Below, in pieces: positions 235 to 24,431 of a DNA stretch of 64,000 nucleotides; positions within the stretch are counted from its first letter, which is position 1, and every line of letters begins with the position of its first letter. The notes beneath the pieces were generated by a model. That model was not told the DNA's origin. It did no database searches and saw nothing but the letters and a program-made list of their open reading frames with translations. This DNA is from a virus (lineage: Duplodnaviria > Caudoviricetes): positions 1 to 64,000 of the IMG/VR virus record IMGVR_UViG_3300013383_000020; one strand, 5' to 3'. A program made the translations under genes and the position numbers.

Positions 235-1585
235 CAATATGTTACTTTATTGGTTCGTTAGTCCAATAAAGATAAAATTATAAAATTATGCTGCGGTATA
301 TTCGATGTATCTATCATATTTTCTTTGAAGATACAAATCTGCATCTTTATACATCCAATTCATAAGTTTAATGGCAGAAGTACCAGTAATACTTGCAACT
401 TTTGTTATTCCATTATGACAAGATGCATCATATATTCCGCAATAAATACCAAGTTCTTTTTCGACTATATCTTTTATTTTTTTACAAAAATTTTCTGTAG
501 AAGTAATTGTTAATGTAATACGTTTATTATTTTCGTTTTTTATATAACGATAAACACTTCCGTCACCATCATAATACCCACGCAGGAAGTGAGAATATAA
601 TTCTTCTGGTATATTGGGAAATTCTAAAACAAGACTTTTATTTCTTACAGCTCCCAACTTTTCTAAAGAACTACATAAATGTCTACTATTCATGTTTAAT
701 GTACACATATTGTTATATGAATAGTTCTTTTCGCTTTTTCGATTAGATTGATCTATTACTTTCAAGGGATTGTCGCTTTCAATTTCTTTACTAATATCTT
801 CTAATAATTTCTTATCACTTTCTTGCAAAGAAATACAAGCCGTTCCTTTTGGTGGGAAATTACATCCATCTGCGAAGAACAAACCTAATACATATGCTTT
901 GTTTGGTGTATCAATATTATCAAAATACTTTTCATTTAAATGATATTTTCTTTGACCGTTATTCACACGTTTAATTCCAAATTCATCTAATATATGACAA
1001 ATCTTATTATAGTTACATCCCATAATTTTACCTATTTTAGTAGTTGATAATTTTTCTTCTACATATAATCTAACAATTTCTTCTTTTTGTTGTTTTGTAA
1101 AAATTATTTCATTATAATTTGGTATTCCGTTTTTCATTGCTTATTCCTCCTAAAAAATTGCAATATAAAAAGACGGTAATCTACTTATTAGGAGTAAGTA
1201 GAAGTGGTTTGCAACCCACTGTCCCGTCTAATTAACTATTCTCTGTTTATAATTTTATTTTCTCTATGTCTCCATAGAAGTTCAGAGCACATCAACACCA
1301 TATCTATAATAGACTTAGGCGGTTTCCATTAACCCACTTGGGTACATGCTCGTTGAGCGTTATCCTATTCGGATTTTCGCTGCTGATTATTACTTATTAA
1401 CGACACTTAGCACATCAATATGATGCTTTTATTTCAGCATATGTCATCTAATTACTTTTTTCCGTCTTTCAACCACATTCACGCTTAATCTTATTTCATA
1501 TTTACGTTGTAGTGTAATTAGCCTTGTAAACTTCCAGCATAAGGAAACTTTCGACACACTGTTTCCAGTATGAAGCGCATAATCT
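235..1585 (-). ncRNA. Group I intron carrying a LAGLIDADG homing endonuclease
   Basis: Exon ends in U, intron ends in G (ATATTG|); core elements TATGCTGGAA (P), AATCAGCAG (Q), CAACGAGCA/GATGTGCTC (R/S, P7); removal restores the frame. Confidence 0.9.
286..1137 (-). CDS. LAGLIDADG homing endonuclease with N-terminal HTH (intron-encoded)
   Basis: Two LAGLIDADG-type motifs AYVLGLFFADGC and FLRGYYDGDGS; RBS AGGAGG. Confidence 0.9.
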   Translation of the reverse strand: MKNGIPNYNEIIFTKQQKEEIVRLYVEEKLSTTKIGKIMGCNYNKICHILDEFGIKRVNNGQRKYHLNEKYFDNIDTPNKAYVLGLFFADGCNFPPKGTACISLQESDKKLLEDISKEIESDNPLKVIDQSNRKSEKNYSYNNMCTLNMNSRHLCSSLEKLGAVRNKSLVLEFPNIPEELYSHFLRGYYDGDGSVYRYIKNENNKRITLTITSTENFCKKIKDIVEKELGIYCGIYDASCHNGITKVASITGTSAIKLMNWMYKDADLYLQRKYDRYIEYTAA

Positions 1586-2177
1586 ACGATGATTGCATTC
1601 TTAACACAGACCACATACGTCTTTTAATTCTTTGAGTTCCGTTTTTCTCAACCCACATTAATTCATAATTTGCAGGCAAGACGAGATACTTTGGAAACTG
1701 ATTCGCATTTTCTTTTCTACAAATTAGCCATTTATGATATACCCCTCTATCGTCAGGAATATCGCACCACATGCCAATCGGAAATTCGCTATTATACCTT
1801 GTATGAATTTTTTCAAAATAGAACAGTTCGTCTCCATCCTCAAACGATAATTTTTGGCTTGGCTTAAACTGTATATAATGCTCAACCTCATCCTTATCCA
1901 TTGATTGATAAGATTTGATAATGAACTTTATATCAATTGGTGTTTTATTTGTATTTTCATAAGTCATTCCGTCTTTTAATGAACGAGTAATTCCATATTC
2001 ATCAGTAAAGAAATCATCATGAAAATGGTCATAAATATAAGCGACTTTACTCTGAGGATCATTCCAAAATGTTTCCTCCATCGCCCAATCAGACTGCTCT
2101 TTATAAATCTGACCAATCGTTTTAGCTCCGTTGTTCTTGGCGTTTGCGACACGCCTAGCTGTTTGTAGACTCGGCAT
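1586..2177 (-). CDS. Exon 1 of head-completion/neck protein
   Basis: RBS GAGGAGGTG before ATG 2177; the apparent TAG at 1584-1586 straddles the 5' splice site; lies downstream of capsid genes. Confidence 0.8.
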
Positions 2178-2520
2178 CGCAATCCACCTCCTCAAACATT
2201 GCTTTTATATATCCGTGAGAATCTAAGATTGCTCTACGGAATTTTTTATAACTAAAATGGTCACTCTTAGCATTATCTAATGCTGCTTGTAATTCAGACA
2301 TAAGTGTAACCATAAGTCCGTTATCATTAAATAAGGTTTTTGTGCCACCTAATTTAAACATAACATTTTCAAAGAAGACGAGAAATGCTTCATCATCTTC
2401 AAATATTTTCTCTTCAATTGTATTGTCTTTATAGAGCAGTAGTTTGTGAATGTCATTATGCATTGCACGAACTGCTTCATTGATTTGCTTGTCTGTGAAG
2501 TCGCCGTATATGTATTGCAT
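2155..2520 (-). CDS. Phage hypothetical protein (head-tail region)
   Basis: 121-aa ORF tightly coupled to neighbouring genes. Confidence 0.7.
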   Translation of the reverse strand: MQYIYGDFTDKQINEAVRAMHNDIHKLLLYKDNTIEEKIFEDDEAFLVFFENVMFKLGGTKTLFNDNGLMVTLMSELQAALDNAKSDHFSYKKFRRAILDSHGYIKAMFEEVDCDAESTNS

Positions 2521-2523
2521 AGG

Positions 2524-2656
2524 CTAGGACTCCGAGTTGATATAAGAATTGTACATATATCCGTAATCACGAATACGCTTATTCAATTCAGTTTTCATGG
2601 AATCAAGACGAGATATCATATTTTTGTGGTTGTTTAGCAGGGATTTTTCTTCCTTA
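2524..2656 (-). CDS. Exon 2 of IStron-split putative head-tail connector protein
   Basis: 323-nt exon 1 + 133-nt exon 2 = 152 codons, reading ...SVMIGG-KEEKSLLNNHKNMISRL...NSES*. Confidence 0.8.
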
Positions 2657-2830
2657 CCGTTGTATAAATTTTATTAATATAAAATTCAAACTCGTATATT
2701 GTCACCTTTATACTTACTTCTTCATAACATTCGATTTTGCCGTAGCTACTTTCGTTTATAATAATGCTCCAAAGTCTTAAATTCCCGTACAACGAACGGT
2801 ACATATTAAATTGTTTCGATTTAGTGAAAC
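2657..2830 (-). ncRNA. Putative omegaRNA (TnpB guide scaffold) at the IStron right end
   Basis: ~170-nt structured non-coding stretch between the tnpB stop and the element end (TACCGTTCGTTGTACGGGAATTT...CAACGG), the position where TnpB reRNAs are encoded. Confidence 0.7.
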
Positions 2831-3966
2831 TAATTTAATGAATATTTTGATAAATTTATTGCCGCATTCAAATCTCTATCAATTACATTCCCACATTCAC
2901 ATTTGTAAATACGGTCTGACAGTTTAAGTTTATTATTCTTTTTCCCACAAACACAACAAAGTTTTGAACTTGGATACCATTTATTTGCTTTTACTAATTC
3001 AATTCCATATTTATCACATTTATATGCAATTTGATTTATAAATTCAAATAAATTTTGTGATTTTATTTGTTTAGCCAAGTATTTGTTCTTTGTCATTTCA
3101 GTTATTATTAAATCTTCTATAACAATCCTTTTTGGCAACTTTTTAACCAAGTCAGATGTTAGATGATGAATATAATTAAACCTAATATTTGTCAATTTCC
3201 TGTTTAATAGTTTGATTTCTTTATTTAGCTTCAATATATTTTTTGTATCAACATATTTATTTAAAGCAAGTTTGTTGGCTTCGTATTTTCTTGCAAGCTG
3301 CTTTTGCTTTCTTTTGATTCTTTTATTTATCTTTTTTACTTTTTGCGTCTTATTAATGCTATGATAAACAGAACCGTCTGAAACAACAGCCAACTCTTTA
3401 ACACCAACGTCTACACCGATACTCTCATTTGAATGTTCAAATTCTTGATTCTCGATTTCATATCCAAATGATAAATACCAATATTTTCCATCAAAAGAAC
3501 ATACTGGATTAATATATGTATTGAGCTTTGGTATTTTTCTATCCGAATGATAAACTACTTCACCAATTTTGCACATTTGAACCTTACCATTTTTGAAATA
3601 AAGTCTATCATACCGAACATAAAAACTCTGTTTGCTATGCTTTTTTGATTTGAATTTTGGGAATTTTGTAATCTTATTAAAATAATTATTAATCGCAATA
3701 TCTAAATTCGTAAAAGCCATAGCGGTAACATCACTCGAAACTTCCTTTATCCAGTCGAACTGTTTTTTATATTGATTAAATTCCTTTTTTAAACGATACT
3801 TATTATAAGTCTCATTATCTTTTTTAATCTGAATAAAACGTTCCAAACCCCAATTATACGCAAATCGTTTTGCACCACAAGATTTAATAAAAAGTTCTTC
3901 TTGTTCTTTTGTGGGTTTCAATCTAATTTTCATATGTTGTATCAAAATATTTTCCTCCTTTCTCAA
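2830..3966 (-). CDS. tnpB: RNA-guided endonuclease TnpB
   Basis: N-terminal KIRLKPTKEQ/RFAYNW, RuvC-I GVDVG, RuvC-II IVIEDL, zinc finger CCVC..CECG, RuvC-III DRDLNAAIN; true start probably TTG 3945 or ATG 3933 after AGGAGG. Confidence 0.95.
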   Translation of the reverse strand: MRKEENILIQHMKIRLKPTKEQEELFIKSCGAKRFAYNWGLERFIQIKKDNETYNKYRLKKEFNQYKKQFDWIKEVSSDVTAMAFTNLDIAINNYFNKITKFPKFKSKKHSKQSFYVRYDRLYFKNGKVQMCKIGEVVYHSDRKIPKLNTYINPVCSFDGKYWYLSFGYEIENQEFEHSNESIGVDVGVKELAVVSDGSVYHSINKTQKVKKINKRIKRKQKQLARKYEANKLALNKYVDTKNILKLNKEIKLLNRKLTNIRFNYIHHLTSDLVKKLPKRIVIEDLIITEMTKNKYLAKQIKSQNLFEFINQIAYKCDKYGIELVKANKWYPSSKLCCVCGKKNNKLKLSDRIYKCECGNVIDRDLNAAINLSKYSLN

Positions 3967-4422
3967 AAAAGATTTCTAAATACTTATTCTCTTTTTGATA
4001 AGGAAGTTTTATGAATTTTATATTATTTATACGATTTCACATTGTTCGTTACACAATGCAGTTCTCATTATATGAACTTCTTTATGTTTCCATAAAGTGA
4101 AGACTATATCATCATCCATTTGGATGTCCCCCATTTCCACTTAACATTTAAAGTGTACGATAATAAGTATCTAGTCGTTGAACTTTACCTTTCGGTCTTA
4201 GCTGCTGATTGTCCGTTATAATGCGTTTAGGATTTAACCATGCGCTATCTATTCAATTTTTTCTACTTTCGTAACATTCACGTTTATACCATTTAAGATA
4301 TTGCGTTGTAGTTTGAATAGTTTTGGGAGTTTCCAGCAATTAAAGGGATTTTCCATGCTTATTACTAAACATGGGTGGCAGTCAATTGTTTTCTAGCAAA
4401 TGCTATTTGTAACAATTCGTCA

Positions 4423-4745
4423 CCACCTATCATTACTGATGTGTGAAGAATAGAATCAACCTGTGGCTGTAACCACTCAATCGTCATTCCAAGTACAAGA
4501 ATTCCTGCGACAAAATCCATATCAGAGGTTTCGTCTACTGAATTGTTCAGTTCAAAATTTATCTGTTGAATTTCATCATCGAGTGTGAGAGAAGAGAATA
4601 GTCTACGCACTCTTGGATTGGAGATTACGTTGTGTAATCGCTCTGTATATATTTCAAGCAAATCTGACTCATCAAGAGAGAGTTCTTTCATGTCTGAAAT
4701 TCGTCCTCTTGTTCGTGAAAAAATTGTTTCGTATGGAAGCGTCAT
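4423..4745 (-). CDS. Exon 1 of putative head-tail connector protein
   Basis: RBS AAGGAGG; frame runs to MIGG at the IStron left end; sits two genes after the major capsid. Confidence 0.8.
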
Positions 4746-4763
4746 TGTTTGATGCCTCCTTTA

Positions 4764-5309
4764 CTATAAAATAGAAGATAAGTCTGTACCGCAAACCTCG
4801 TCAATTACTTTGATTTTCTGCAATGAATCAAAAGTTCCTGCTTCCATCTCTGTAGCAACTTCTGCACTAACGGCTCTCTGTAAACCATTTGGAAGAGTAG
4901 GGAATACACGCTTGAAATCGTTAAGATTCATATCAATAAGCGTTTCTACATCTTCTGAATAAATCTTTTCGTAAAGTGCCTTTACATCTTTCCACTTAGA
5001 ATCTTCTAATAATTCTTCATCTTCGATTACAAATAATGTCTCGAAAATAAATGGAGACTTCTTAGCTCTTAATCCAAGTAAATCCTGATATTCAACCTCT
5101 GTAATATCACCATAATCTTCCCATGTATAAACTTCTCCACTTTTCTTTCCGACATAAATAAGTTCTCCCTTGGTCATGGAACGACATGGAATTAAGTCAT
5201 CAGATTTGTATTCCTTTACTTTTATTGGTTCAACAGTTTTTGTCGTTGCTTTTTCAGTAGCAGCCTTTACAGTCTTTTCCTCTGTATTAGTCTTTTTTGT
5301 ATATGCCAT
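4764..5309 (-). CDS. Phage protein downstream of major capsid (SPbeta YonA-like position)
   Basis: ATG 5309 after AAAGGA; Lys/Thr-rich N-terminus; synteny. Confidence 0.65.
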   Translation of the reverse strand: MAYTKKTNTEEKTVKAATEKATTKTVEPIKVKEYKSDDLIPCRSMTKGELIYVGKKSGEVYTWEDYGDITEVEYQDLLGLRAKKSPFIFETLFVIEDEELLEDSKWKDVKALYEKIYSEDVETLIDMNLNDFKRVFPTLPNGLQRAVSAEVATEMEAGTFDSLQKIKVIDEVCGTDLSSIL

Positions 5310-5378
5310 TTCCTTTAATCTCCTTACATTAAAATAGGAGAGTGCATAATACACTCTCCGTAAAATCTACACAGAATA

Positions 5379-6458
5379 CTAGGCAATGTTCTTGTAGAAA
5401 CCGAACTTTCTCTGAAGTACAGTTGCTACACCCATCTTCTGCTGGTACTCGTATTCGATTGTCTTATCCATATTTGTATTACCATCAGATACTTCCTTAA
5501 CCTGTGCCTCGCCCTCATCATAAATCTTGATGAATTTGTTGTCTGCAACAGGCATAACAAGAAGAACATCGTTTGCAACTAACTTCTTAGAAGTATCATT
5601 TGGAGCAAAGCTCTGAGGAATCTCTACCAGACGAATTCCTTCCCAAATACCAAGACGACCAGTTGTGTGTCTTTCCTCTTTCATAGAATCTGAAATCCAC
5701 TGTGTATCAGCAAGGGCATTAAGCTTAGAAAGTGCAGTCTTAGTACCCATAATTACAGCCTCAACACCATTTGCTGTCTGTACGTCTTCAACAAGAGTGA
5801 TAAGAGTATCCTTGTTTAATGTACCTGTCTTTGTGAACTGATTTGTAGGAAGAACTTTGTCGCCAGCAGCCATAACAGCGGCATAAACCATATCATTTAC
5901 TTTCTTGTCGAAAGCTTCATAAATCTTATTGATGAATCCAGCCCAGTCTACCTTACCTGCCATAAACAGCTCGTACTCTGCATAAATTTTCACGCCATAG
6001 TAGCTTGTCTTAACAGAGAATGTGCTACCAGCACCAAGTCTCTGACGGAAGAGATTGTGGTGGTTTCCACTTAACTCAGATACAGTTAATACAGTCTCAT
6101 CAGGAACATAGAACTCATTTGTATCACCTGTGTTCATAGACTTAATTTCTACAAACTCGTTGAAGAATGGATTATCTCCCCAACCAGAAACAAGTAAATT
6201 CTCAACTGTCTCTTCAATAACCTCGAAGACATCTACCTTATGTCTACGAATTGCCTTATGTAAATCCTTGCGAGAGCATCCCTCGTCTACACCAAGAATC
6301 TCGAACATAACTTCACGAATCTTGGCGTCTGCATCTTCCTTAGATACATCTTTCTGCTTTCCGCAAGCAGTATCAATCATTAACTGAGAAAACTCAGCAT
6401 AATCCTTATCAGCAAACACTTCTCTAGTATCAGCGTTACTAAATGTTAATTTCTTCAT
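5379..6458 (-). CDS. Major capsid protein
   Basis: 359 aa, strongly biased codon usage, follows portal-protease-decoration genes, hairpin terminator downstream (5337-5359). Confidence 0.8.
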   Translation of the reverse strand: MKKLTFSNADTREVFADKDYAEFSQLMIDTACGKQKDVSKEDADAKIREVMFEILGVDEGCSRKDLHKAIRRHKVDVFEVIEETVENLLVSGWGDNPFFNEFVEIKSMNTGDTNEFYVPDETVLTVSELSGNHHNLFRQRLGAGSTFSVKTSYYGVKIYAEYELFMAGKVDWAGFINKIYEAFDKKVNDMVYAAVMAAGDKVLPTNQFTKTGTLNKDTLITLVEDVQTANGVEAVIMGTKTALSKLNALADTQWISDSMKEERHTTGRLGIWEGIRLVEIPQSFAPNDTSKKLVANDVLLVMPVADNKFIKIYDEGEAQVKEVSDGNTNMDKTIEYEYQQKMGVATVLQRKFGFYKNIA

Positions 6459-6479
6459 TATTCTTTATCCTCCTTTCGA

Positions 6480-6950
6480 TTACTCGCCAACTTTTACTTT
6501 CTTGTCAGCTACAGAAACTGTCTTGTCTACCTCTGGTGTTCCATCGAAACCTTCAGCAGAAAGTGTAAATACATCCCCTACGTAAAGCTCGTACACTCTG
6601 AGAACATCTCCTTTAGCATTGAAGAAATTAGACTCTTCCTGCATTTTTGTTGTGTACTCCTCATAAATAAGAGGTACGGAAAGAACTAATCCTTCACCGT
6701 CACCAATAGCAGTAACTTCTACTCTGAATCCACCATTGGCTGCTTTTTCAATAATCTTTCCTGCGAAAGTAACAGCGGTATCTTCCTCGTAAACCTCTGG
6801 TCTGAGGTACGCCCCTTTTTTAACAATAGTTCCGTTATCAATATCTGCTTTTGCTTCGATATTCCAGATATTTCCAATCTGAGTAGCCTTGAGCTTTGTA
6901 GACTCGCAAACTGCATGTTTTGTACTAAAATTCAAAAAACTTGTAGCCAT
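6480..6950 (-). CDS. Putative capsid decoration/stabilising protein
   Basis: 156 aa beta-rich ORF between scaffold and capsid genes. Confidence 0.6.
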   Translation of the reverse strand: MATSFLNFSTKHAVCESTKLKATQIGNIWNIEAKADIDNGTIVKKGAYLRPEVYEEDTAVTFAGKIIEKAANGGFRVEVTAIGDGEGLVLSVPLIYEEYTTKMQEESNFFNAKGDVLRVYELYVGDVFTLSAEGFDGTPEVDKTVSVADKKVKVGE

Positions 6951-7029
6951 TTTAATTTCCTCCTTAATATTTTTTGCAATAAAAAAGAACGTCTTATGAC
7001 GCTCTTGAAAGTGTGTTTATATTCTGTTT

Positions 7030-8352
7030 TTACTTAAATAATGTTGAGTAAGCCTTTGTCTTACCTGTGTCTTTCTTCATACTAAATCTAATCTTTGAAG
7101 TAGATTTCTTATTAGAATCATTCATAGAAAATGTTCCAACAGAAGATACATAGTCAGCGAAAATAACCTTTGCCTCTTTTTCAAGATCAGCAAGAGAATA
7201 GTCATCCATATTTTTCTTTAACTCAGCAAAAGCCTCATTTTCTGCTAATACAGAGTATTTTTCATCAGATAACATAGTCTCACGTTCTGCATGAATTTTC
7301 TCAAACTCAACATCGTCATGATATTTCTGTAACTCGTTAAATTCCTCATTTGTGTGAGAATGTGAATTTTTATACTCTTCGTACTCAGCTTTTAAAGAAT
7401 CAAGTTCTGACATCTCTACAGTCTCTTCAACGGTTTCTTCTACGGAAGCTTCAACAACTGTCTCGTCCTCCTGGACTTCTTCATTTTCAGATTCAGTATT
7501 TGTGTCTTCATTTACTTCTGCGTCAGGAGTTTCCTCAGTTGTATTCTCAACAACTTCCTCTGTGGACTCTTCATTTACTTCCTCAACAGTTTCAATTACT
7601 TCTTCTTTTTCGTTTTCCACAACTTCGTCCTCCTTTCCATCAGTGTTGTCTTTATTAAAATAAAAGGCTAATTCATTTTTGAGTTCACCCATTACTTTTG
7701 AAAATTCTTCCTTTTCAAGTGAATACTGAACAGGAATTACTTTTGACTCTACAAAACATGGTTCTGTATGCTCTGGACTTGTTTTGTCATCTGCCTTGCC
7801 TAAAAGACAAAGAGCAGAATATGTAAAATCTGTTAATTCTGTATAATTGCTATCTTCCTCATAAGGACGAAATTCTGACACATTGATTTCCATGCTCTGA
7901 TTAAAATAAAAATCATCAGAATAAATAGCTTCCATTAACTCAGGATATCTACCAGTCCAAAGAACAACTTCGGCAGTAAGATACTCTGTTTCGATTTCAT
8001 CTTCATATTCCTTTACAGTTTCAAAGTCAAACGAATCTGCTTTTACAACGCCATAAGGGACACAAGCACTTTTTAGATTCCAGTCATCATCAATATAGTA
8101 ATCATGACCACCCATGTACTTTTCACCAGTTGGATTTCCGTCTTCATCTAATTTGTCGATTAAATGACCAACAACAGGTGCGTATGATAGGGTAGGTAAA
8201 CATCTCTGAATATTTTCTTTACTCATATAAGAAAAATTTCTATTCTTCCCAATACCCTGCACATAACACTTACATAAGGTAAATTCATCATTGATTTTTT
8301 CGATAGGCGTAACTTTTGCCTTAAATTTTAGCGAAGTATGCTTTTTATCCAT
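7030..8352 (-). CDS. Prohead protease/scaffold protein
   Basis: N-terminal NRNFS, VVGH, QSMEI, ALCLLG..PCF motifs plus acidic coiled-coil C-terminus; between portal and capsid. Confidence 0.75.
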   Translation of the reverse strand: MDKKHTSLKFKAKVTPIEKINDEFTLCKCYVQGIGKNRNFSYMSKENIQRCLPTLSYAPVVGHLIDKLDEDGNPTGEKYMGGHDYYIDDDWNLKSACVPYGVVKADSFDFETVKEYEDEIETEYLTAEVVLWTGRYPELMEAIYSDDFYFNQSMEINVSEFRPYEEDSNYTELTDFTYSALCLLGKADDKTSPEHTEPCFVESKVIPVQYSLEKEEFSKVMGELKNELAFYFNKDNTDGKEDEVVENEKEEVIETVEEVNEESTEEVVENTTEETPDAEVNEDTNTESENEEVQEDETVVEASVEETVEETVEMSELDSLKAEYEEYKNSHSHTNEEFNELQKYHDDVEFEKIHAERETMLSDEKYSVLAENEAFAELKKNMDDYSLADLEKEAKVIFADYVSSVGTFSMNDSNKKSTSKIRFSMKKDTGKTKAYSTLFK

Positions 8353-8405
8353 GTTTCCTCCTTTCTGAATTTTTGCAAAAATAAAAGTTGCCCCAAAGAG
8401 GACAA

Positions 8406-8591: not shown

Positions 8592-8602
8592 CCTTTTGCT
8601 CC

Positions 8603-10144: not shown

Positions 10145-10165
10145 ATTTGATAGCACACCTCCTTT

Positions 10166-13009: not shown

Positions 13010-14041
13010 CTAAGCAGTTTTAGTAACTTCTCCTAAATTATTTTCATTATATTTCCAAATATAGCCTTTATATGTATCACATTTATATTCATTTCTACAA
13101 ACCTTATTGATTGAGTAAATATTATTTCCATCATCTTGTAATTCTTTAGCAGACCATGTTTTAATAAAATTCATATCTTTATCGAATTGGTCTATATAAT
13201 ATAAACCACAACACTTTCTACAATGATGTAAATATTCACTTGTAAGATTGAATTCTTTATCATATTTATAAATCCATATATAATTACCATATATATTTCT
13301 TTCGTGCCTGCAACATCTTTTTATTCCTAAAATATTTTCATCACTATTTCTCAATTCTTCTTGTGACCATTCTTTTATTAAATTTCCAAACAAATCATAT
13401 TGTAGAATTGGTATATCAAAATATCTATTATGTTCAAACATATATTGTTCTACGTCAAAATTTTCTATATTGTCATATTCATCTTTATAAAACCAGATAT
13501 AACCACCTGCTTGATAACATACATGTCTACAACACTGTAAGATTGTTCTCGCACGAATATTATCAAATGTTCTCTGAACATGAGTAGCACTTCTCCATAT
13601 TTTTATAAGATTTCCATTAAAATCAATTTGTACAACTTTATCTGGATTCTTTACTTTGGACATATAATCTTTTTGCTCTTGCGTTAGTGATATGCCACGA
13701 CTTGAGCAATCACCACCAGTAGAAAGATTATAACCATTCTTAGGATTGGTTGAATCATATTTATCTATCCAATAAATCTCTCTATCGTTTAATTCATCTT
13801 GTGTGCATTCTTCCAATACAGAAAAATCGAAATTATCTTCTCCATATTTGTTCCATGCACCCTGTAAATGTCTGTTATAATGGTTATCTCTGTTTAATTC
13901 GCAACGGTGATTCCACCATCTGGTGCGAATGTCAATGCTTTGTCCAATATACACCTTATTGTTTATTTTGTTTGTGATAATATAAATACCACTTACACCT
14001 TCTGGTAATCCAGTTTCTTTTTTATTCTGTAAAGTTCCCAT
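13010..14041 (-). CDS. GIY-YIG homing endonuclease with NUMOD1-like repeats
   Basis: SGIYIITN..VYIGQS, GYN motif, three repeats Q.D..G..IK.W.S...C....Y.GYIW. Confidence 0.9.
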   Translation of the reverse strand: MGTLQNKKETGLPEGVSGIYIITNKINNKVYIGQSIDIRTRWWNHRCELNRDNHYNRHLQGAWNKYGEDNFDFSVLEECTQDELNDREIYWIDKYDSTNPKNGYNLSTGGDCSSRGISLTQEQKDYMSKVKNPDKVVQIDFNGNLIKIWRSATHVQRTFDNIRARTILQCCRHVCYQAGGYIWFYKDEYDNIENFDVEQYMFEHNRYFDIPILQYDLFGNLIKEWSQEELRNSDENILGIKRCCRHERNIYGNYIWIYKYDKEFNLTSEYLHHCRKCCGLYYIDQFDKDMNFIKTWSAKELQDDGNNIYSINKVCRNEYKCDTYKGYIWKYNENNLGEVTKTA

Positions 14042-14314
14042 TTCATCATTTCTCCAATCCCTCCATATCAACAACAATAGAAGAGAAGAGTGACTGGATA
14101 TGGAGTACAGTCATTCACGAAGATGATCAGTCCTCGTTATTCTTCTCTTAATTCCAACCACCTGCAATCGAAACAGTAACAATCCTCTCATAGTTAGCTA
14201 TATATTTATTCTCTTTTTAAATTTCATCACAACACAAAAAGAAGCCATCTCTTGCGAAATGACTTCTCAAATTTCCAATATTAAATTTCCAATGAAAGTG
14301 CAATTTATTTAGAA

Positions 14315-14398: not shown

Positions 14399-14403
14399 AT
14401 GAG

Positions 14404-15489: not shown

Positions 15490-15507
15490 CTATTTCTCAC
15501 TCCTTCC

Positions 15508-17307: not shown

Positions 17308-17310
17308 GTT

Positions 17311-17502: not shown

Positions 17503-17613
17503 TTTTTCATTCCTCCTTAATATTTTTATAGTCGCCCACATGAGCTAACACGCAGACGACCTTATATAAAAGGAAGTCTGTCTTAATTTTTTGCATAAAA
17601 ATAAGACCTACGA

Positions 17614-18492
17614 TTATGCGGTCTTTTCTAATAATTCATTAGTTCTAAATTTTACTTGATGCATTTTAGTCAACATATTCTTTCGTTCTGTAAATCCCAT
17701 ATCCATCAAAAGTAACACTTGATTCTGTTCTTCTAAGAACAGCAATTCTTCATTATGTTCTTTCTTCAAATAATCACGAATTAGGTCATTAGCTGCAACT
17801 CCATATTCAGATTTTAATTGCTGAGAAGTTTTACCAGAAACAATAACATTTAACATGTCTGCTTCAACTGCATATTCTGAACGACTTGCATGATGTCCCC
17901 ATATGCGGTAACACCAAGCGTCAACTTCCGATGACATTTTCTTGTATTCAACTTTCTCAGGATCACGAGTAGCAAGCCATTCTTTATTTTTAATAACAAT
18001 ATCTTTTAAAATTCTAAAATATCTTCTGTACATACGAGATATTTCCTTTGTTACTTTGTTCGTTCTTGGCAAAGCACCAATATACATCGCAATATCTTCC
18101 GCTGTGTCTAATTTTAACATGCAAGATTTGGATATTCCCTTTGCTGATAACTGCGATTGGTTTAAACCAACTGCTTCATTTTCAGCAAATTTTTCGTAAT
18201 CAATTAAATGAGTACGAGGGTTATTTTCCCATTTCTTTACAGTACAATAGAATATTTGGTAAGAATCTTCGCGTACATTTTCGGAATTGAAAATATTAGA
18301 CCTTATCCAATTTGAGAATTTGTCTTTTGAACCAATCTGATTCCATAAATCAATTGCATTCACACTATATTCAGCAATATTATCATTATCAAATAATACA
18401 GGTAATTCTTTTTGACATTTTAATATTAACTGTATGTCCTCCTCTTTACATTCTAGTCTTTCCAATTCTTTTCTACTAAATTTTTGAACCAT
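17614..18492 (-). CDS. AntA/AntB-like antirepressor-domain protein
   Basis: VNAIDLWNQIGSKDKFSNWI, LDTAEDIAM and RRYF motifs. Confidence 0.7.
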   Translation of the reverse strand: MVQKFSRKELERLECKEEDIQLILKCQKELPVLFDNDNIAEYSVNAIDLWNQIGSKDKFSNWIRSNIFNSENVREDSYQIFYCTVKKWENNPRTHLIDYEKFAENEAVGLNQSQLSAKGISKSCMLKLDTAEDIAMYIGALPRTNKVTKEISRMYRRYFRILKDIVIKNKEWLATRDPEKVEYKKMSSEVDAWCYRIWGHHASRSEYAVEADMLNVIVSGKTSQQLKSEYGVAANDLIRDYLKKEHNEELLFLEEQNQVLLLMDMGFTERKNMLTKMHQVKFRTNELLEKTA

Positions 18493-18867
18493 TTTTCAGT
18501 TCCTCCTTATTTTATTTTTTGTTTTTGCGCAACAAAAAAGTTATGCGCTTATTGCTAGATTCCTATCTTTTTGCCTTGACAATTAGTGGGGTATAAGGAG
18601 CTACCTCATACCCACTCATTGCTTTTGTATGCGCAAAAAGGTGGTTAGGATTCCACCAATAAGGACATAACTTTCGTCCTAATTTGTATTCAATTGTTAA
18701 TATATTATTCTCTCAAAACCCAATGAAAGCCAAAATTCATGAGTCATTGATAAAAGCGAGAGAGTGGTGATGAGCCACCCACATCTTATACTCACGTGCA
18801 CACAAATATAAAACTTTAGCCATCAGGGTTTCTCGCATAGTAGGGTGGAAGAGTACCACCCATTATA

Positions 18868-19779
18868 TTAAGGGGTCACAGAAGCGAATAATGCGTCAAT
18901 CTCATCATTAGTAATTGCAGTAAATGTATCCGACTCTAAAGCATCAACACGGGTTTTTAAACTATCAACACCTGCTTGTGCGTCTGTACCAGCCTTTTTT
19001 GCGTCTGCAATAGCCTTGGTAGTTGCACCACCAGTACCAAGAGAAGCTTTATTAGCAGCCACATCAGTCTTTAAATCTGTTAAATCTGATTCCTGAATTG
19101 CAGTATCGGCTTTACCTAAAGAAGTCTGAACTTCTTTAGAAAGTTTAGTCTTTGTAACATTACCGTCCGCAATTTTAGCAGTTACAACCGCATTAGCAGC
19201 TAATTCTGTGGCGGTTACAGAACCAGCAACAATAGTAGCAGAAATTTCTCTTGTAGAAGAATCAATTGCAAGCTGAATCTGTGTAGCACTAGCCTTTGCT
19301 GTATAAATATCTACCAGTGTACCAATATTAATATACACCTTATCATTTGTTGCATTAGCAAGTGTTAATACTAAATAAGTACCTTTAGATTGACCAGCAG
19401 GATCTTTTTCAACCGTACCACTAGATACAACCATATCTTTTGGAATATCAATTACACCAAGTCTTGCATTACCCTGTGTGAATGTGTAAGATTTTGCATA
19501 TCCTTCGGTAGTAGTCTCTGTAGAAATCTTAACAACAGAGCCTGTACCACCTGCTTCGATAGATGCCGCAACTTCATTTAAAGCAACAACTAAATTTTCT
19601 TTATTGGTTGTTGGTAAATCGTCAAGTGTGCCAATTTTACTTTCTACAGATTCTTTTGCTTCCTGAATTGCTTCCTTTGCACTGGCAAGGGTAGCAGCAT
19701 CGTCAGTAACGATTTTAGCTTTAATTTGTTTGTCGTATTCTTTTAATCCAGTAAGATCTAAATATGTAGCTTTTGCCAT
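18868..19779 (-). CDS. Putative virion fibre protein
   Basis: YLDLTGL N-terminus, IDIPKDMVV, xVTxxKIA repeats, ITNDEIDALF C-terminus. Confidence 0.65.
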   Translation of the reverse strand: MAKATYLDLTGLKEYDKQIKAKIVTDDAATLASAKEAIQEAKESVESKIGTLDDLPTTNKENLVVALNEVAASIEAGGTGSVVKISTETTTEGYAKSYTFTQGNARLGVIDIPKDMVVSSGTVEKDPAGQSKGTYLVLTLANATNDKVYINIGTLVDIYTAKASATQIQLAIDSSTREISATIVAGSVTATELAANAVVTAKIADGNVTKTKLSKEVQTSLGKADTAIQESDLTDLKTDVAANKASLGTGGATTKAIADAKKAGTDAQAGVDSLKTRVDALESDTFTAITNDEIDALFASVTP

Positions 19780-19798
19780 TTTTTTATTTCCTTTCTTT

Positions 19799-20056
19799 TT
19801 ATGTGAATAAATTGTTTATTTCTTCAATGGGTATAGTTGGCATAGATTCCTTATTTATTTCTTCTATTTTTGTATTTACCTCTTCAAATCTATCATCTAC
19901 ACTACCATTAATTTCTGTAATTTTTGTTTCAATTGACTCGTTTAATTCTTTTTTTATATCGTTATCATTCTGAATTAACTCATCTTTAATTTTTTTGTCA
20001 TTTTTAAGAAGCATTACGGTAAGCTCAGATACCTTGTCGTCTGTTACAATTTTCAT
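19799..20056 (-). CDS. Small coiled-coil protein
   Basis: 85 aa; C-terminus IPIEEINNLF echoes the neighbouring gene. Confidence 0.6.
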   Translation of the reverse strand: MKIVTDDKVSELTVMLLKNDKKIKDELIQNDNDIKKELNESIETKITEINGSVDDRFEEVNTKIEEINKESMPTIPIEEINNLFT

Positions 20057-20370
20057 CAGCCACCGTCCTTTCCAAACACATCATTGTAAGCTTTTTCGTA
20101 AATATTTATAATATCTTCTGATGTGGTTATCTGATATTGTGAATCTTTATCAACTTTAACTGTTACATCATATGTAATGTCAACCACAACACGTAAATTT
20201 TCGTGACCAACCTTTTTATCCAATTCTTCCATTACTTTATTTAGTTCTTCTACATCTGTTGTTGAAAACTCCACCTCTTGAGAGGGGTCATCAGTGACTT
20301 TGTAAAATTCATAAAAAACTTTTTTGAATGTAGAAGTATATTTAATGAGAATTTTATATTTCAACTCCAC
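20056..20370 (-). CDS. Phage hypothetical protein
   Basis: GGGAGG RBS and GTG start. Confidence 0.6.
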   Translation of the reverse strand: MELKYKILIKYTSTFKKVFYEFYKVTDDPSQEVEFSTTDVEELNKVMEELDKKVGHENLRVVVDITYDVTVKVDKDSQYQITTSEDIINIYEKAYNDVFGKDGG

Positions 20371-20419
20371 ATGTCCTCCCTTCTTATATTTTTATTTTCC
20401 TTTTACTCATTTGTTGAAA

Positions 20420-20494
20420 TTGCGGAAGAAGGATTCGAACCTCCGATTTTCAGCTCATGAGGCTGATGAGATGACCAGACTTCTCTATTCCGCT
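20420..20494 (-). tRNA. tRNA-Met(CAT), initiator-like
   Basis: Anticodon arm TCAGC-CTCATGA-GCTGA, 1:72 mismatch, T loop TTCGAAT. Confidence 0.85.
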
Positions 20495-21585
20495 ATGATA
20501 ATAGGAGAGTAATAACCTCTCCTTATTATGTAGAATGATAAGATCTACTGCCGGGCGATTATCAGCCGACCGACAAAAGAGAATGTTGAAAATTCTCTGA
20601 AATGTAATATTATCCAGTAGCTACGCCACATCGGAATCGAACCGAAATCTTCTCCTATATGAGACGCATGTTCCAATCATGCTGATGACCTGGATAATGT
20701 GTTATTCTCTCATTCCTAACTCGTGTGTCTTACACGTCAAATGCATGATATGTATATGAGAGTAACCGTTCCCTAATTCACTCCCATCTCTAAAAATCAG
20801 TAACGATGATATTAGGAGAAACATCGAAACTTGCAGAACTCAATGGGAAGTTCTCAATCTTTCCCTCAGAAAAAATAGGTCTTATAATGCTACATGAATA
20901 GCAAATGCCAAGATGTGTGTTTGATTGATTTTCTCATATTTCAATTGAAACCGTGACGCTGTATCAATCCAATAACGGTTCACTATATTGTGATTCTTAT
21001 TGACTAACAGGATTACTTTACGTTTGCTGCAATCAGACGTATATATTTAATTAAGTACTTCAATCCATAGGCTTCGCAAGTTTCTATGGGGAACAGTATA
21101 CTCTTTCATATCTCGCAAGATATTACTTACTGGTCGACACGTCTGTTGACAATTATATATTCTCTGTTTAAGAATGATTTGGTTAATCTCTTAGAATACT
21201 CTCTTTAACGTATCATCCACGAGATCAATACTTGCGACAATCTACTTTACCAAAAAGCTGATTATCTTCGCAGAGTTCCGATACCTTCTTATAAGCTCCT
21301 GGTATCACAAGGCATCAGATATGCAACTAAAACTCACTTCTGAATACATATCCTCTCCAACTTATTTCATACTCAAGGTTGATGCCCTATTTTGTGCTAT
21401 CTCCCATATAGAACGGTAGGCTTGGGTCTCCTTGTATTTTATTCTCTGTTCGAGAATGTTTTCTGTAAAACTCTACCAACGAATTGATAGAGCACCCCTA
21501 CTCTTGTAAAAGTGTAGGCAGCTTATATTCTGAATTGTCCAATTAAGGATTCGTTCTATATATTTATTCTCTGTTTTGGAATATT

Positions 21586-21615
21586 TTGACATGAATTGTC
21601 GTGATATGATATAAT
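21586..21615 (+). promoter_or_regulatory. SigmaA promoter of type I toxin mRNA
   Basis: TTGACA-18-TATAAT with TGn extension. Confidence 0.75.
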
Positions 21616-21724
21616 GGCAATAAGGCACTACTAAGTACGGTAGGCGGTTGTCCTCTCATGGGAGTACAAGCCCATTTCTACATAGAAACCTTTCGAGGAA
21701 TCTTGCGAAAGGAGGACATTCTTT

Positions 21725-21808
21725 ATGGTAAGTTTTTCAGATTTATTTACTTATACACTAGTTATAATTGCCATTATTACTCTTGTTAGTAATAGAAAAG
21801 AAAAATAG
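21725..21808 (+). CDS. 27-aa hydrophobic holin-like type I toxin peptide
   Basis: MVSFSDLFTYTLVIIAIITLVSNRKEK after AAAGGAGG; one transmembrane segment plus basic tail; opposite strand to surrounding genes. Confidence 0.75.
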   Translation: MVSFSDLFTYTLVIIAIITLVSNRKEK

Positions 21809-21944
21809 CCGCCCCGTCCTAGGAAAACGAGCGACTAGATTTCTTTAGTCTTTTTAGTATTTCGGACAACCGTTGCTGTTATACGGTAGTGTCTTTTTAT
21901 CTTTAATTCCTTTGTATTGTAACACATATTGAGAGAGGGTGCAA
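21800..21944 (-). ncRNA. Putative antisense antitoxin RNA and its promoter
   Basis: Minus-strand TTGCAC-17-TACAAT (21944-21916) converging on the toxin 3' UTR, which contains hairpins. Confidence 0.6.
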
Positions 21945-22031
21945 GTGGGAATTAGGTTGGTGTTAGACGAAGGCTTCATCGGCATCTTCAGTGTCCTCAC
22001 GAATGACATACATCTGAGTGGTTTCGGAAGA

Positions 22032-23066
22032 TTATTTGCTCTCAGATTCATTTTTCTCTTTTAAAGCATTAATTTTTTCCATAACTTCTGCCTTAGTTTT
22101 AGGCTTGCAATAAAAGGAACGAGTTGTTTCTGTCGATTTGTGATTGGCAAGCTCGGCTGCTAATGCTAAATCGCCAGTTTCTTCATAAACCAAATTTAGA
22201 CGGGATTTTCGTTGGCAATGCGGACGATAATCAGAAATTTGAATGATTTCACCATATTTTCTCATTCTGTCTCTGATAGCACTATCACCCATAGGTTTAT
22301 ATTTCCCTTTATATTTTGTAATCAACAACGAATCACATTCTAAATGGTCATAATCATTCTTACGCATCTCAAGCCACTCTTGGATGAGTTCTTTTGCAAC
22401 ACTCCCAAAAACAACCTGCGTATGGTAACCCTCTTTTTCCCTTATGTCAACGAACATATTATGTTCCAAGTCAAGCTTAGATAATTGTAGTTTTAACAAC
22501 GCACCAATTCTATTTGCGGAGTCAAAACTTACTTCAAATAAAATCTGGTCTTGAATTGAATACTTATCATTTTCAGATAACTCTCTGCGGATTGTTTGAA
22601 CTTGTTCTTCTGTAAGAAAATAAGAATTCAAAATATGTTCCTCATTAGCTTTCTTCATTCTATCAAGTTTCCCATCAAAAGGATGGTATTTAACAAAACC
22701 ACGTTTCATAGACCAAATATAGAATGAACTAACAGCAGAGATTTTCATGTTGATAATCTTTTTATGATTCAGAAGTGTTTCCTGACAGAACATAATATAG
22801 TTCTCCATAATATCAACGGCATTCTCCATAAACTCATCTGAATACAAATCTAAATCTCCATAATTTTCACCTAACCACATAAGAAAATGACGAAATAATC
22901 CTTCATATCTTTTATATGTAGTATCTTTAACGTCCTGATTTTTAATAATATTTGATTGGAGATATTTTTTATATTTTTTCAAGTTATCAGGATTTATAAA
23001 TTTTTCCTTATCTTTAGTAAAATATTTTACCCTTGTTACATGTGCCACTAAATCACTTCCTTTCAT
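22032..23066 (-). CDS. Tyrosine recombinase/integrase
   Basis: Catalytic R (SANRIG), HxxR (PHCQRK), H (ANHKS), Y (TTRSFY); likely start GTG 23048. Confidence 0.9.
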   Translation of the reverse strand: MKGSDLVAHVTRVKYFTKDKEKFINPDNLKKYKKYLQSNIIKNQDVKDTTYKRYEGLFRHFLMWLGENYGDLDLYSDEFMENAVDIMENYIMFCQETLLNHKKIINMKISAVSSFYIWSMKRGFVKYHPFDGKLDRMKKANEEHILNSYFLTEEQVQTIRRELSENDKYSIQDQILFEVSFDSANRIGALLKLQLSKLDLEHNMFVDIREKEGYHTQVVFGSVAKELIQEWLEMRKNDYDHLECDSLLITKYKGKYKPMGDSAIRDRMRKYGEIIQISDYRPHCQRKSRLNLVYEETGDLALAAELANHKSTETTRSFYCKPKTKAEVMEKINALKEKNESESK

Positions 23067-23092
23067 AACAAAAAGAAGTAGAATAGTGATAA

Positions 23093-24042
23093 CTAAGCTA
23101 CTTCTTTGATAAAATCTAATAAAATTGTTTCGGTATTTTTAAATTCCCAATATGGAATTTCTAATAATGGTATGTTATTATTTTTACAATATGTACGTTT
23201 AGTATTGTCACTAAGCTGATTCCTTTTAAATAGGTTATTAGCCCATTCAATGCCCTTACCTGCAAAGTCAATTGGTTCATAGTGCTGTATTCCTTGATAT
23301 TCACACAAACCAATGAGATTATTATTGTTAAATATTGCAAAGTCAAACGGTAATGGTAATTGCATCCTACAATCATCAAAACAATATTGCGTTTGATATT
23401 GAATATTATTTTTGTCTAAAATATTTTCAATATATTTTTCACCTTTTGAAGCAGAACAATGAGGACAACAGTTTCCATTTTTATGTTATTAAAATTGGAT
23501 TCCCATGATTTACCACAAATATCACACTTAAATAGGCTCAATTCTCTTATATTTCCACAATATTCAATACATTGAAATGTCTTATCGTTTTCTCTCAACC
23601 AATTATTTACTTCTTCTATATCTGAGATTTTCTTAACTCCTGCACATACTGGACATCCTTTTCCTGATTTAATATTACTTACTTTTCCATTCCATTCAAA
23701 TCCGTCAATCATACATCTAAATCTGGAATTACTACTTGCCGATTTACCATCGTAATAAATACATTTAATTTTACGATTATGTTTACTAAGCCAATTATTA
23801 ACTTCATCAATCCCGCTTATTTTAGTAGACCTACCACACATAGGACATCCAATTGACTTAGAATGAGTAAGTGCATCCAATGTTGATTCCCATTCATATT
23901 TATCTTTATTACAACGAAAAATGCTTTTTGCTTTAAAATTTCCACCATATTTAACACAAATTAAACCGTTAAGGTTCATTTGTTTTAAATATTCTGTACA
24001 TTCTTCTGCATTTTTAAATCTGTTATTTCTATTGTTTCCCAT
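23093..24042 (-). pseudogene. Frameshifted zinc-ribbon-repeat, restriction-endonuclease-like homing endonuclease
   Basis: Repeats ending in GCPxC; adding one A in the A-run at ~23480 joins 23416-24042 to ...CPHCSASKGE..LPFDF..EYQGIQHY..KR.YC..NNIPLLEIPYW. Confidence 0.8.
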
Positions 24043-24431
24043 AATTTTTACCTTTACCCTTTCACCTTACCCAATACCAATAAAAATAGAATGGGAGAGA
24101 GGGGTAAGGTAATAAACTCTACTCAAATCGGTTTGCAACTCCGATTTGTCCCATTCCATAAATCCCACAACCAGCTATGACACCAATCATGAGCGCATAT
24201 ATTTATTCTCTGTTTCCAATACAGAAACAGCAAAAATGGACAACCGAGGAATCGAACCCCGACTAAGAACCATCTCGCCCCATACAAAAAGAGTGTGCAG
24301 TTCACACCACACACTCTTACAAGACATATTTTTCTTTTTAACCCTTAAATTGACCTTAAAACGCCAAATATGTCACCAATAACATAAAATTAAATTATTA
24401 ACATAAAATATGTTACAATTAACAAATTATG

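What the first reader, a model, noticed from the sequence alone, without database searches (positions are those of the whole stretch)
1144..24160. Shared three-way-junction leader with an anti-RBS loop precedes three unrelated homing endonucleases
Seen (minus strand): a closing stem, a hairpin with a T-loop-like loop, and a second hairpin containing the complement of that gene's own RBS region, followed by a U-rich tract. LAGLIDADG (1144-1232): AGACGG/CCGTCT, GTGG-GTTGCAAA-CCAC, CTCCTAA vs TTAGGAG. GIY-YIG (14050-14150): AAGAGAAGA/TCTTCTCTT, CGAGGA-CTGATCA-TCTTCG, CTCCATATC vs GATATGGAG. Zinc-repeat nuclease (24043-24160): GAATGGGA/TCCCATTC, ATCGG-AGTTGCAAA-CCGAT, ACCTTACCC vs GGGTAAGGT. Anti-RBS and target covary across the three. 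Inference: a portable cis/trans antisense module analogous to P1 C4 or P4 CI RNA that silences toxic nucleases and travels with them.
Basis: partly seen in the sequence, partly recalled or inferred. Interest (0 to 1): 0.72.

Follow-up and report, generated by a model that had tools for sequence, protein, structure and literature searches.

The report
Folded leader RNA of phage nuclease genes
Three selfish DNA-cutting-enzyme genes of this uncultured 108-kb phage each start with a small three-armed RNA fold in which one loop pairs with the gene's own ribosome-binding region and another loop is self-complementary. It most likely keeps nuclease production low, and two of the three copies belong to a widespread, functionally unstudied RNA family related to the Rfam motif int-alpA.

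Summary
All three minus-strand leaders have a closing stem, two hairpins and a U-run, and the second hairpin's loop (L3) complements the Shine-Dalgarno (SD) region.

- **Family membership:** A covariance model (CM) built only from other phages scores site 3 at 38.9 bits and site 2 at 27.5 bits. Site 1, the LAGLIDADG leader, scores 11.8 bits and is only a look-alike, though it is strongly conserved.
- **Structure support:** In 36 distinct relatives 92% of pair cells are paired, against 58.5% when shuffled. 19 of 21 pairs show compensatory changes.
- **Loop-target pairing:** Each L3 loop matches its own downstream sequence (0 of 5000 permutations). It usually matches two tandem boxes, the second at the SD position.
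- **"T-loop":** This loop is really a 6-nt palindrome (UUGCAA, UGAUCA, UCAUGA, UCGCGA or UAGCUA), which suggests kissing dimers.
- **Mobility:** Relatives lack whole promoter-leader-nuclease cassettes at sites 2 and 3. Site 1 lies inside a group I intron.
- **Known relatives:** The window copies hit nothing in Rfam. GC-rich relatives hit int-alpA (RF02996) at 26-38.5 bits.

The most likely function is translation limitation by an SD pseudoknot, possibly with attenuation and dimerisation. There is no homology to C4 or CI. This scan has already found the family on other DNA.

The parts
14081..14149 (-). Site 2 three-way junction: P1 14141-14149/14081-14089; P2 14131-14137/14117-14123; P3 14108-14113/14091-14096
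   Evidence: The independent CM R3 gives 27.5 bits, E 2e-5. The orthologue L107 keeps P2 and P3 through three compensatory pair changes.
14124..14129 (-). Site 2 P2-loop palindrome UGAUCA
   Evidence: This is one of five palindromic hexamers seen at this position in the family.
14097..14107 (-). Site 2 L3 loop UACUCCAUAUC (the anti-SD loop)
   Evidence: It has a 9-nt perfect complement to 14061-14069. The duplex energy is -14.1 kcal/mol.
14052..14069 (-). Site 2 twin targets: T1 GAUAUGGAG 14061-14069 and T2 UUGGAG 14052-14057. T2 is the SD for the AUG at 14041.
   Evidence: The GIY-YIG reading frame starts at 14041.
13035..14297 (-). Site 2 mobile cassette: terminator-like hairpin, promoter motif 14207-14214, a ~45-nt upstream element, the leader, and the GIY-YIG ORF 13010-14041. 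Boundaries are approximate.
   Evidence: The related phage record G007 has about 40 nt here, between the same tRNA-Ser and the same downstream gene.
24086..24159 (-). Site 3 three-way junction: P1 24149-24159/24086-24096; P2 24141-24148/24124-24131; P3 24117-24120/24098-24101
   Evidence: CM R3 gives 38.9 bits, E 6e-9.
24133..24138 (-). Site 3 P2-loop palindrome UUGCAA
   Evidence: The orthologue L014 has a different P2 arm with UCAUGA on the same P1/P3 backbone.
24102..24116 (-). Site 3 L3 loop, containing ACCUUACCC
   Evidence: It has a 9-nt complement to T1, with a duplex energy of -17.9 kcal/mol. In L014 the loop is UCACCUAC and both targets change to GUAGGUGA / GUAGG.
24050..24072 (-). 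Site 3 twin targets: T1 GGGUAAGGU 24064-24072 and T2 GGGUAAAGGU 24050-24059. T2 is the SD, 7 nt before the AUG at 24042.
23107..24279 (-). Site 3 cassette: promoter motif 24204-24211, the leader, and the zinc-repeat nuclease gene. In this phage the gene is split into 23416-24042 and 23093-23365. Boundaries are approximate.
   Evidence: Record G001 has 214 bp where the window has 1172 bp. The gene split is shown against the 316-aa L014 protein.
1171..1229 (-). Site 1 three-way junction (look-alike or divergent member): P1 1224-1229/1171-1176; P2 1216-1220/1203-1207 with palindrome UUGCAA 1209-1214; P3 1195-1202/1180-1187 with L3 CUCCUAA 1188-1194
   Evidence: CM scores are only 15.2 bits (R2, on the orthologue L001) and 11.8 bits (R3). 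Across orthologues the leader is 96-98% identical while the ORF is 82-93% identical.
1147..1163 (-). Site 1 single target UUAGGAG (SD, 1147-1153) and a second UUGCAA in the linker (1158-1163)
   Evidence: The duplex energy is -9.9 kcal/mol.
233..1603 (-). Group I intron carrying site 1 and the LAGLIDADG ORF (286-1137). The promoter motif 1237-1244 sits 7 nt before P1. Boundaries are approximate.
   Evidence: The core at 1245-1600 aligns at 75% mean column identity with the Rfam-scored intron at 4080-4378. The flanking exons are 9 nt apart in record G016.

Best explanation
Each nuclease gene is transcribed with a structured 5' leader made of a closing helix P1 and two hairpins, P2 and P3.

Proposed mechanism:
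- The P3 loop (L3) base-pairs, as a pseudoknot, with one or two short boxes that lie between the U-run and the start codon. The box nearest the start codon is the Shine-Dalgarno sequence.
- This pairing hides or constrains the ribosome-binding site and keeps translation of the nuclease low.
- P1 followed directly by a U-run probably also terminates part of the transcripts, so it acts as an attenuator.
- The P2 loop always carries a 6-nt palindrome. This most simply means that two leaders (or a terminated leader and a full-length mRNA) kiss loop to loop.
- The leader belongs to a self-contained promoter-leader-ORF cassette that moves between phage loci and is shared by unrelated nuclease ORFs.

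What is shown: the structure, the loop-target covariation, the palindromes, and the cassette presence/absence.

What is inferred: repression, termination and dimerisation.

In family terms, sites 2 and 3 belong to a long-P2 branch of the Rfam int-alpA motif. Site 1 is an architectural look-alike inside a group I intron.
For: Family membership:
- CM R3 was built from 39 IMG/VR matches in A7, none from the window. In the window it finds site 3 (38.9 bits) and site 2 (27.5 bits) as the only significant hits.

Helix covariation (alignment A7):
- 92.0% of cells are paired, against 58.5% when shuffled and 39-55% with slid partners.
- 19 of 21 pairs show changes on both sides.
- The covariation score is 0.863 against 0.223, with 0 of 500 shuffles as high.

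L3-target pairing:
- The longest complement between a leader's P3 region and its own downstream 70 nt averages 6.77 nt. Against other leaders' downstream sequence it averages 5.09 nt (0 of 5000 permutations as high).
- Orthologues show direct compensatory changes. The window has ACCUUACCC with GGGUAAGGU; L014 has UCACCUAC with GUAGGUGA and GUAGG.
- Two or more boxes occur in 21 of 35 non-redundant leaders, against 14% of mismatched pairs.

Energetics:
- The three-way junction alone is -19.7 to -21.4 kcal/mol, and the L3:T1 duplex adds -9.9 to -17.9.
- Their sum is lower than the nested MFE of -25.5 to -29.8 kcal/mol.

Palindromes and flanking signals:
- UCAUGA, UUGCAA, UGAUCA, UCGCGA and UAGCUA occur at the same loop position.
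- A U-run follows P1.
- A -10-like box lies 3-12 nt before P1 in 19 of 48 leaders, against 15% background.

Cassette behaviour:
- Empty sites exist in related phages.
- The same leader heads GIY-YIG, HNH, DUF4379 and other ORFs, with homology ending at the AUG.

Precedent: RBS masking is the established way T-even phages hold homing endonucleases down (PMC2988022).
Against: - No expression data exist. No RNA run holds this phage.
- The upstream box T1 is often the better match. L3 could therefore sit on T1 and leave the SD free, which would make the leader permissive or even activating.
- In a few relatives the boxes are not SD-like (L180 CAACUGC, L195 GGGUGCA).
- Five other nuclease-like genes in this genome lack the leader: three with GIY-YIG hits and two with HNH_3 hits, one of those below the curated cut-off.
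- The U-run statistic is biased, because the retrieval pattern required TTTT.
- Site 1 is not supported by the CM.
- Branched terminators are unusual.
Confidence: 0.6

Rival explanations
1. The leader is a trans-acting antisense sRNA of the C4/CI type. Most transcripts stop at the U-run after P1 and release a ~70-nt three-armed RNA. This RNA docks on full-length mRNAs through the palindromic P2 loop and closes the second box with its own L3.
For: - A promoter box lies immediately before P1 in many relatives.
- P1 is followed directly by a U-run.
- There are two boxes but only one loop per molecule.
- The P2 loop is palindromic.
- Rfam files the related int-alpA motif as an sRNA gene.
Against: - No transcript ends are known.
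- Site 2 has a poor U-run (CUAUUGUUGUU).
- Covariation cannot separate cis from trans action.
- No C4-type Rfam family is hit at E<=10.
Confidence: 0.22
2. The leader is a riboswitch or a protein-binding leader. The junction would bind a metabolite or a phage or host protein, and binding would decide whether L3 is free to mask the SD.
For: The leader has a three-way junction with conserved junction residues (J1/2 'UA/A', J2/3 'GAA/AU', and 'UAC' at the 5' side of L3). It is also placed in a 5' UTR.
Against: - There are few invariant junction nucleotides.
- The downstream genes (nucleases, DUF1376) share no metabolic theme.
- The P2 and L3 sequences vary freely.
Confidence: 0.08
3. The signal acts at the DNA level. 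The palindrome and inverted repeats would be an operator, a homing or recombination site, or simply an insulating terminator, and the loop-RBS match would be incidental.
For: - The palindromic hexamers resemble protein or restriction sites.
- The leader marks the 5' breakpoint of exchanged cassettes.
Against: - The stems covary with no sequence conservation, which is typical of RNA and not of an operator.
- The palindrome has asymmetric flanks (AAG...G).
- L3-target specificity is significant.
- Strand-specific G-U pairs are tolerated.
Confidence: 0.05

Closest known systems
Rfam RF02996, int-alpA RNA motif (candidate sRNA from Weinberg et al. 2017, NAR 45:10811; no function assigned in any paper I could search)
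   Same: - It has the same order of parts: P1, a short junction, P2, 'GAAAA', P3 with a CCUU-type loop, P1', a U-run, then an AGGG box.
- GC-rich members of the family retrieved here hit it at 26.3-38.5 bits, against a gathering score of 35.8.
   Different: - The window's three leaders do not hit it at E<=10.
- P2 here is a long arm with an 8-10-nt palindromic loop instead of 4 bp plus about 5 nt.
- The host genes here are homing endonucleases rather than int/alpA.
- The twin boxes and the loop-box covariation are shown here. I could not find them described for int-alpA, but the paper's supplement was not readable.
RBS-sequestering hairpins of T-even homing-endonuclease genes (I-TevI, I-TevII, I-TevIII, segB; mobE of Aeh1)
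   Same: They serve the same kind of gene and follow the same logic: the SD is hidden in RNA structure to keep a selfish nuclease low, and the cassette or intron has its own promoter (PMC2988022).
   Different: - Those are simple local hairpins, and a late promoter inside the hairpin relieves them.
- Here the SD pairs with a remote loop of a conserved three-way junction that lies wholly downstream of the promoter.
- The leader here is a conserved family shared by unrelated ORFs.
P1/P7 C4 antisense RNA and P4 CI RNA
   Same: They are small structured RNAs encoded in the leader of the operon they control. Their loops are complementary to sites at a downstream RBS, and there is more than one target site.
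   Different: - There is no sequence or CM similarity.
- C4 uses two loops (a', b') for two sites, whereas here one loop serves two tandem boxes.
- C4 and CI are released by processing (from my own knowledge), while here a U-run follows the closing stem.
HIV-1 dimerisation initiation site (SL1) kissing loop
   Same: Both have a 6-nt palindrome, flanked by unpaired purines, in a 9-10-nt hairpin loop. Different palindromes are found in different lineages.
   Different: The context is a retroviral genome. Dimerisation of the phage leader has not been tested.

Membership tests
Rfam RF02996 int-alpA | Covariance-model score at or above the gathering threshold (35.8 bits) | tested here: not met
   Window positions 1-30000 were scanned at E<=10 and gave no int-alpA hit. 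Relatives L190, L125, L183, L126, L119, L158 and L117 score 38.5 to 26.3 bits; only L190 passes the threshold.
Rfam RF02996 int-alpA | Architecture: P1 enclosing P2 and P3, then a U-run, then a box complementary to the P3 loop | tested here: met
   for the window copies. The model consensus and structure line are shown.
   With R3, site 3 scores 38.9 bits (E 6e-9) and site 2 scores 27.5 bits (E 2e-5).
   R3 gives 11.8 bits, E 1.1. R2 gives 15.2 bits on the orthologue L001, no better than the noise hits. Site 1 shares only the architecture, the UUGCAA loop and the L3:SD match.
C4 antisense RNA (RF01695 and related c4 motifs) | CM match; two loops a'/b' pairing with the a2/b2 sites | tested here: not met
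   No hit at E<=10 in the window or in relatives. Only one antisense loop is present.
T-even type RBS-masking hairpin | The SD lies inside a local hairpin, with a promoter inside the hairpin that produces an unmasked transcript | tested here: not met
   The promoter motif lies upstream of the whole fold (1237-1244, 14207-14214, 24204-24211). The SD pairs with a loop 40-60 nt away.
Intrinsic terminator | A stable stem immediately followed by a U-run | tested here: inconclusive
   The U-run is good at site 1 (U5) and at site 3 (11-bp P1, then UUUUAUU), and poor at site 2. The stem closes a branched structure. No transcript ends are available.
Kissing-loop dimer (DIS-like) | A self-complementary hexamer in the loop, kept palindromic while its sequence changes | tested here: met
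   Five different palindromes occur at the same loop position. One exception is imperfect: CGAUCA in L016. Physical dimerisation cannot be tested with these tools.

The most novel reading that the evidence does not exclude
The leader is a protein-free, self-sensing riboregulator. Transcripts that stop at the U-run accumulate as ~70-nt three-armed RNAs. These dock on nascent or full-length leaders through the palindromic P2 kissing loop and bring in a second anti-SD loop, so that both tandem boxes are closed. Nuclease synthesis then falls as leader RNA concentration rises, and different palindromes would give separate regulatory channels within one phage.
Probability: 0.15. Interest if true: 0.85.

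Novelty: new variant of a known kind. Interest (0 to 1): 0.62.

Why it matters
- **Biological need:** Homing endonucleases must be kept at a very low level or they damage their own phage. Only simple, phage-specific hairpins were known to do this.
- **What is new here:** This is a conserved, portable RNA module used by at least five nuclease families, and by DUF1376 genes, across many uncultured phages.
- **Link to an orphan motif:** It gives the orphan Rfam motif int-alpA a testable function, namely pairing of its loop with the ribosome-binding region.
- **Possible dimerisation:** The covarying palindromic loop would be a rare case of regulated mRNA-leader dimerisation in a bacterial virus.
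- **Practical uses:** The model helps to annotate mobile nuclease cassettes. The loop-box pairs are a natural set of orthogonal translation dampers.

Tried and rejected
- **Rfam hits for the window copies:** None at gathering or at E<=10, and none for the AT-rich relatives.
- **T-loop reading of GUUGCAAA:** Rejected. The loop varies as a palindrome, not as UUCRANY.
- **Cultured relatives:** megablast of 24.5 kb against INPHARED gave only short hits to the intron, TnpB and RAGATH parts. blastn of a GC-rich leader gave nothing usable.
- **Expression data:** No RNA holder is listed for this phage.
- **MAFFT alignment of the three leaders (A1, A2):** It was structurally wrong. I used CM-guided alignments instead.
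- **Raw complement length to the RBS:** On its own it is not remarkable. 15 of 165 genes have an exact complement of 8 nt or more within 150 nt upstream. The signal comes from its position in L3 together with the fold.
- **The structural descriptor alone:** It is not specific (7 real hits against 6-13 in shuffles). It becomes specific only with the loop-target requirement.
- **Literature:** Searches found no description of this leader. The supplement of the int-alpA paper is not held.
- **A second 50-record CM sweep:** It mostly re-found known copies.

Full report
**What is in the window.** The window is the first 64 kb of a 108.5-kb, 32.6% G+C virus record with no close relative among deposited phages. 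Each has:
- a closing helix P1;
- a hairpin P2;
- a hairpin P3 whose loop (L3) complements the region just before the start codon;
- a U-rich stretch after P1.

The genes behind them are a LAGLIDADG_3 protein (286-1137), a GIY-YIG protein (13010-14041) and a DUF4379 zinc treble-clef protein (23416-24042). Each leader is preceded by the motif AGAGAATA. This motif lies before very many genes, and always on the coding strand of its region, so it is probably this phage's own promoter element.

**Is it more than chance?**
- An exact complement to the RBS region somewhere upstream is common in this AT-rich genome, and the bare fold descriptor is not specific.
- The fold plus a 7-nt or longer complement of the P3 loop downstream occurs at exactly these three places, plus one AT-rich artefact. 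Shuffled genomes give 0.32 on average.

**Relatives.**
- Protein-anchored searches of IMG/VR gave orthologous and paralogous leaders.
- A first covariance model (R1, then R2) found more in whole phage records.
- A scan for the commonest P2 loop (GAAGUCAUGAGC ... UUUU) gave 80 loci, of which 36 carry a significant match at the pattern site.
- On that alignment of 36 distinct sequences, 92.0% of pair cells are standard pairs, against 58.5% after shuffling and 39-55% with slid partners. 19 of 21 pairs change on both sides, and the covariation score is 0.863 against 0.223.
- Model R3 was built from that alignment, which contains nothing from the window. It scores site 3 at 38.9 bits (E 6e-9) and site 2 at 27.5 bits (E 2e-5). 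These are the only significant hits in the window.
- Site 1 scores 11.8 bits (E about 1), and R2 gave 15.2 bits on its orthologue L001. Its membership is therefore not shown.
- Site 1 shares the plan, the UUGCAA loop of site 3 and a 7-nt L3:SD match. Its leader is 96-98% identical among orthologues whose ORFs are 82-93% identical, so it is under selection.

**The loop and its targets.**
- L3 matches its own downstream sequence much better than that of other leaders. The mean longest complement is 6.77 nt against 5.09 nt, and 0 of 5000 permutations are as high.
- Orthologues show the compensation directly. Site 3 has ACCUUACCC with GGGUAAGGU. L014, whose protein is 94% identical, has UCACCUAC with GUAGGUGA.
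- L107, the orthologue of site 2, keeps P2 and P3 through three double changes.
21 of 35 non-redundant leaders have two or more separate boxes complementary to the same loop segment, against 14% of mismatched pairs.
- The distal box (T1) lies about 10-15 nt after the U-run. The proximal box (T2) sits at Shine-Dalgarno distance from the AUG.
- Sites 2 and 3 have both boxes (14061-14069 and 14052-14057; 24064-24072 and 24050-24059). Site 1 has one box.
- In L014 both boxes changed together with the loop.

**The other loop.** The 'T-loop-like' loop is a 6-nt palindrome. It is UUGCAA at sites 1 and 3 and UGAUCA at site 2. Relatives have UCAUGA, UCGCGA or UAGCUA, usually with unpaired purines on the 5' side.
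- The inner four bases of a hexamer cannot pair within one hairpin loop, so the simplest reading is loop-loop pairing between two molecules, as at the HIV-1 DIS.
- P2 arms are exchanged as units on otherwise identical leaders (L016 against L017; site 3 against L014).
- I noted this in the notebook before reading the earlier notes of this scan, which say the same.

**Mobility.**
- At site 2, the related record G007 has about 40 nt between the same tRNA-Ser and the same downstream gene. The window has about 1.26 kb there: a terminator-like hairpin, the promoter motif, a ~45-nt element, the leader and the GIY-YIG ORF.
- At site 3, G001 has 214 bp in place of 1172 bp.
- Nearly identical leaders head GIY-YIG, HNH, DUF4379 and other ORFs, and homology stops at the AUG.
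- Of 39 downstream ORFs, 9 are GIY-YIG, 7 DUF4379, 6 carry NUMOD1, 3 HNH_repeat, 3 HNH-type and 1 LAGLIDADG. However, 5 are DUF1376, which is not a nuclease family.
- Site 1 is different. It lies inside a ~1.37-kb insertion whose core aligns at 75% mean column identity with the Rfam-scored group I intron at 4080-4378. Its flanks are 9 nt apart in G016, so this LAGLIDADG gene is intron-encoded.
- Five other nuclease-like genes in this genome have no such leader: three with GIY-YIG hits and two with HNH_3 hits, one of those below the curated cut-off.

**Known families.**
- No Rfam 15 family is hit by the window copies at E<=10 or by AT-rich relatives.
Seven hit RF02996 int-alpA at 26.3-38.5 bits, against a gathering score of 35.8.
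- The int-alpA consensus has the same order of parts, including the U-run and a final AGGG box complementary to its CCUU loop.
- The family here is therefore a long-P2 branch of int-alpA, a motif for which I found no assigned function.

**Mechanism (inferred).**
- The junction alone is worth -19.7 to -21.4 kcal/mol, and the L3:T1 duplex adds a further -9.9 to -17.9. Together these are lower than the best nested fold, so a pseudoknotted leader is plausible.
- Masking or crowding of the SD would limit translation, as T-even phages do with simpler hairpins (PMC2988022).
- P1 plus the U-run, often with a -10 box just upstream of P1 (19 of 48 leaders against 15% background), looks like an attenuator. 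It could release a small RNA.
- One loop for two boxes, together with a kissing loop, fits a model in which a second leader supplies the second loop. This is speculation.
- The U-run count is biased by the search pattern, although 9 of about 10 lineages found without the pattern also have it.
- No RNA data exist for this phage.

**Verdict.**
- The structure is real.
- Two of the three copies are firm family members.
- The module is portable.
- Repression is likely but untested.
- The C4/CI analogy is only functional.

The same family has been reported by this scan in several other genomes.

Noticed in passing
window 2714-4378 (-): An IStron-like arrangement: a group I intron (4080-4378, 76.5 bits), then a promoter motif, a TnpB gene (2830-3966: OrfB_IS605 plus the Cas12f1-like TNB domain), and a RAGATH-18 RNA (2714-2775, 60.1 bits), presumably its guide RNA. 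The intron core is a paralogue of the one that carries the LAGLIDADG gene.
   Followed up: partly
window 27699-28295 (-): A full-length ROOL RNA (285.9 bits) lies next to tRNA-Asn (27533-27605).
   Followed up: no
window 20500-21850 (-): About 1.3 kb without ORFs of 60 aa or more, containing three copies of the promoter motif (21572, 21447, 21165). It may encode unknown structured RNAs.
   Followed up: no
window 23093-24042 (-): The zinc-repeat nuclease gene is split here. Residues 1-188 of the 316-aa L014 homologue lie in ORF 23416-24042, and residues 227-316 lie in ORF 23093-23365. The gene behind leader 3 is probably broken in this phage.
   Followed up: yes
window 35400-35500 (-): Three direct repeats of GGGAAAATTTTCACA(C/T)A lie upstream of another GIY-YIG gene (34648-35361) that has no three-way-junction leader.
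   Followed up: no
window 24239-24262 (-): A sequence resembling a tRNA 3' half (GGGGTTCGATTCCTCGGTTGTCCA) that ARAGORN did not call. It lies near the integrase gene 22032-23066 and may be an attachment site.
   Followed up: no
window 14150-14200 and 24160-24200 (-): A conserved element of about 45 nt lies between the promoter motif and P1. It recurs in many related records and appears to form a hairpin with a UGUCAUAG-type loop.
   Followed up: no
window 13993-14049 (-): A short out-of-frame ORF (MMKWELYRIKKKLDYQKV) starts at the AUGs just after T2 and overlaps the GIY-YIG start. The orthologue L107 has a similar overlapping pair of AUGs.
   Followed up: no
whole contig (G000), both strands: AGAGAATA occurs 43 times on the plus strand beyond 39 kb and 15 times on the minus strand before 37.2 kb. 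This matches gene orientation, and the motif is typically 20-40 nt before a start codon, so it is probably the phage's own promoter element.
   Followed up: partly
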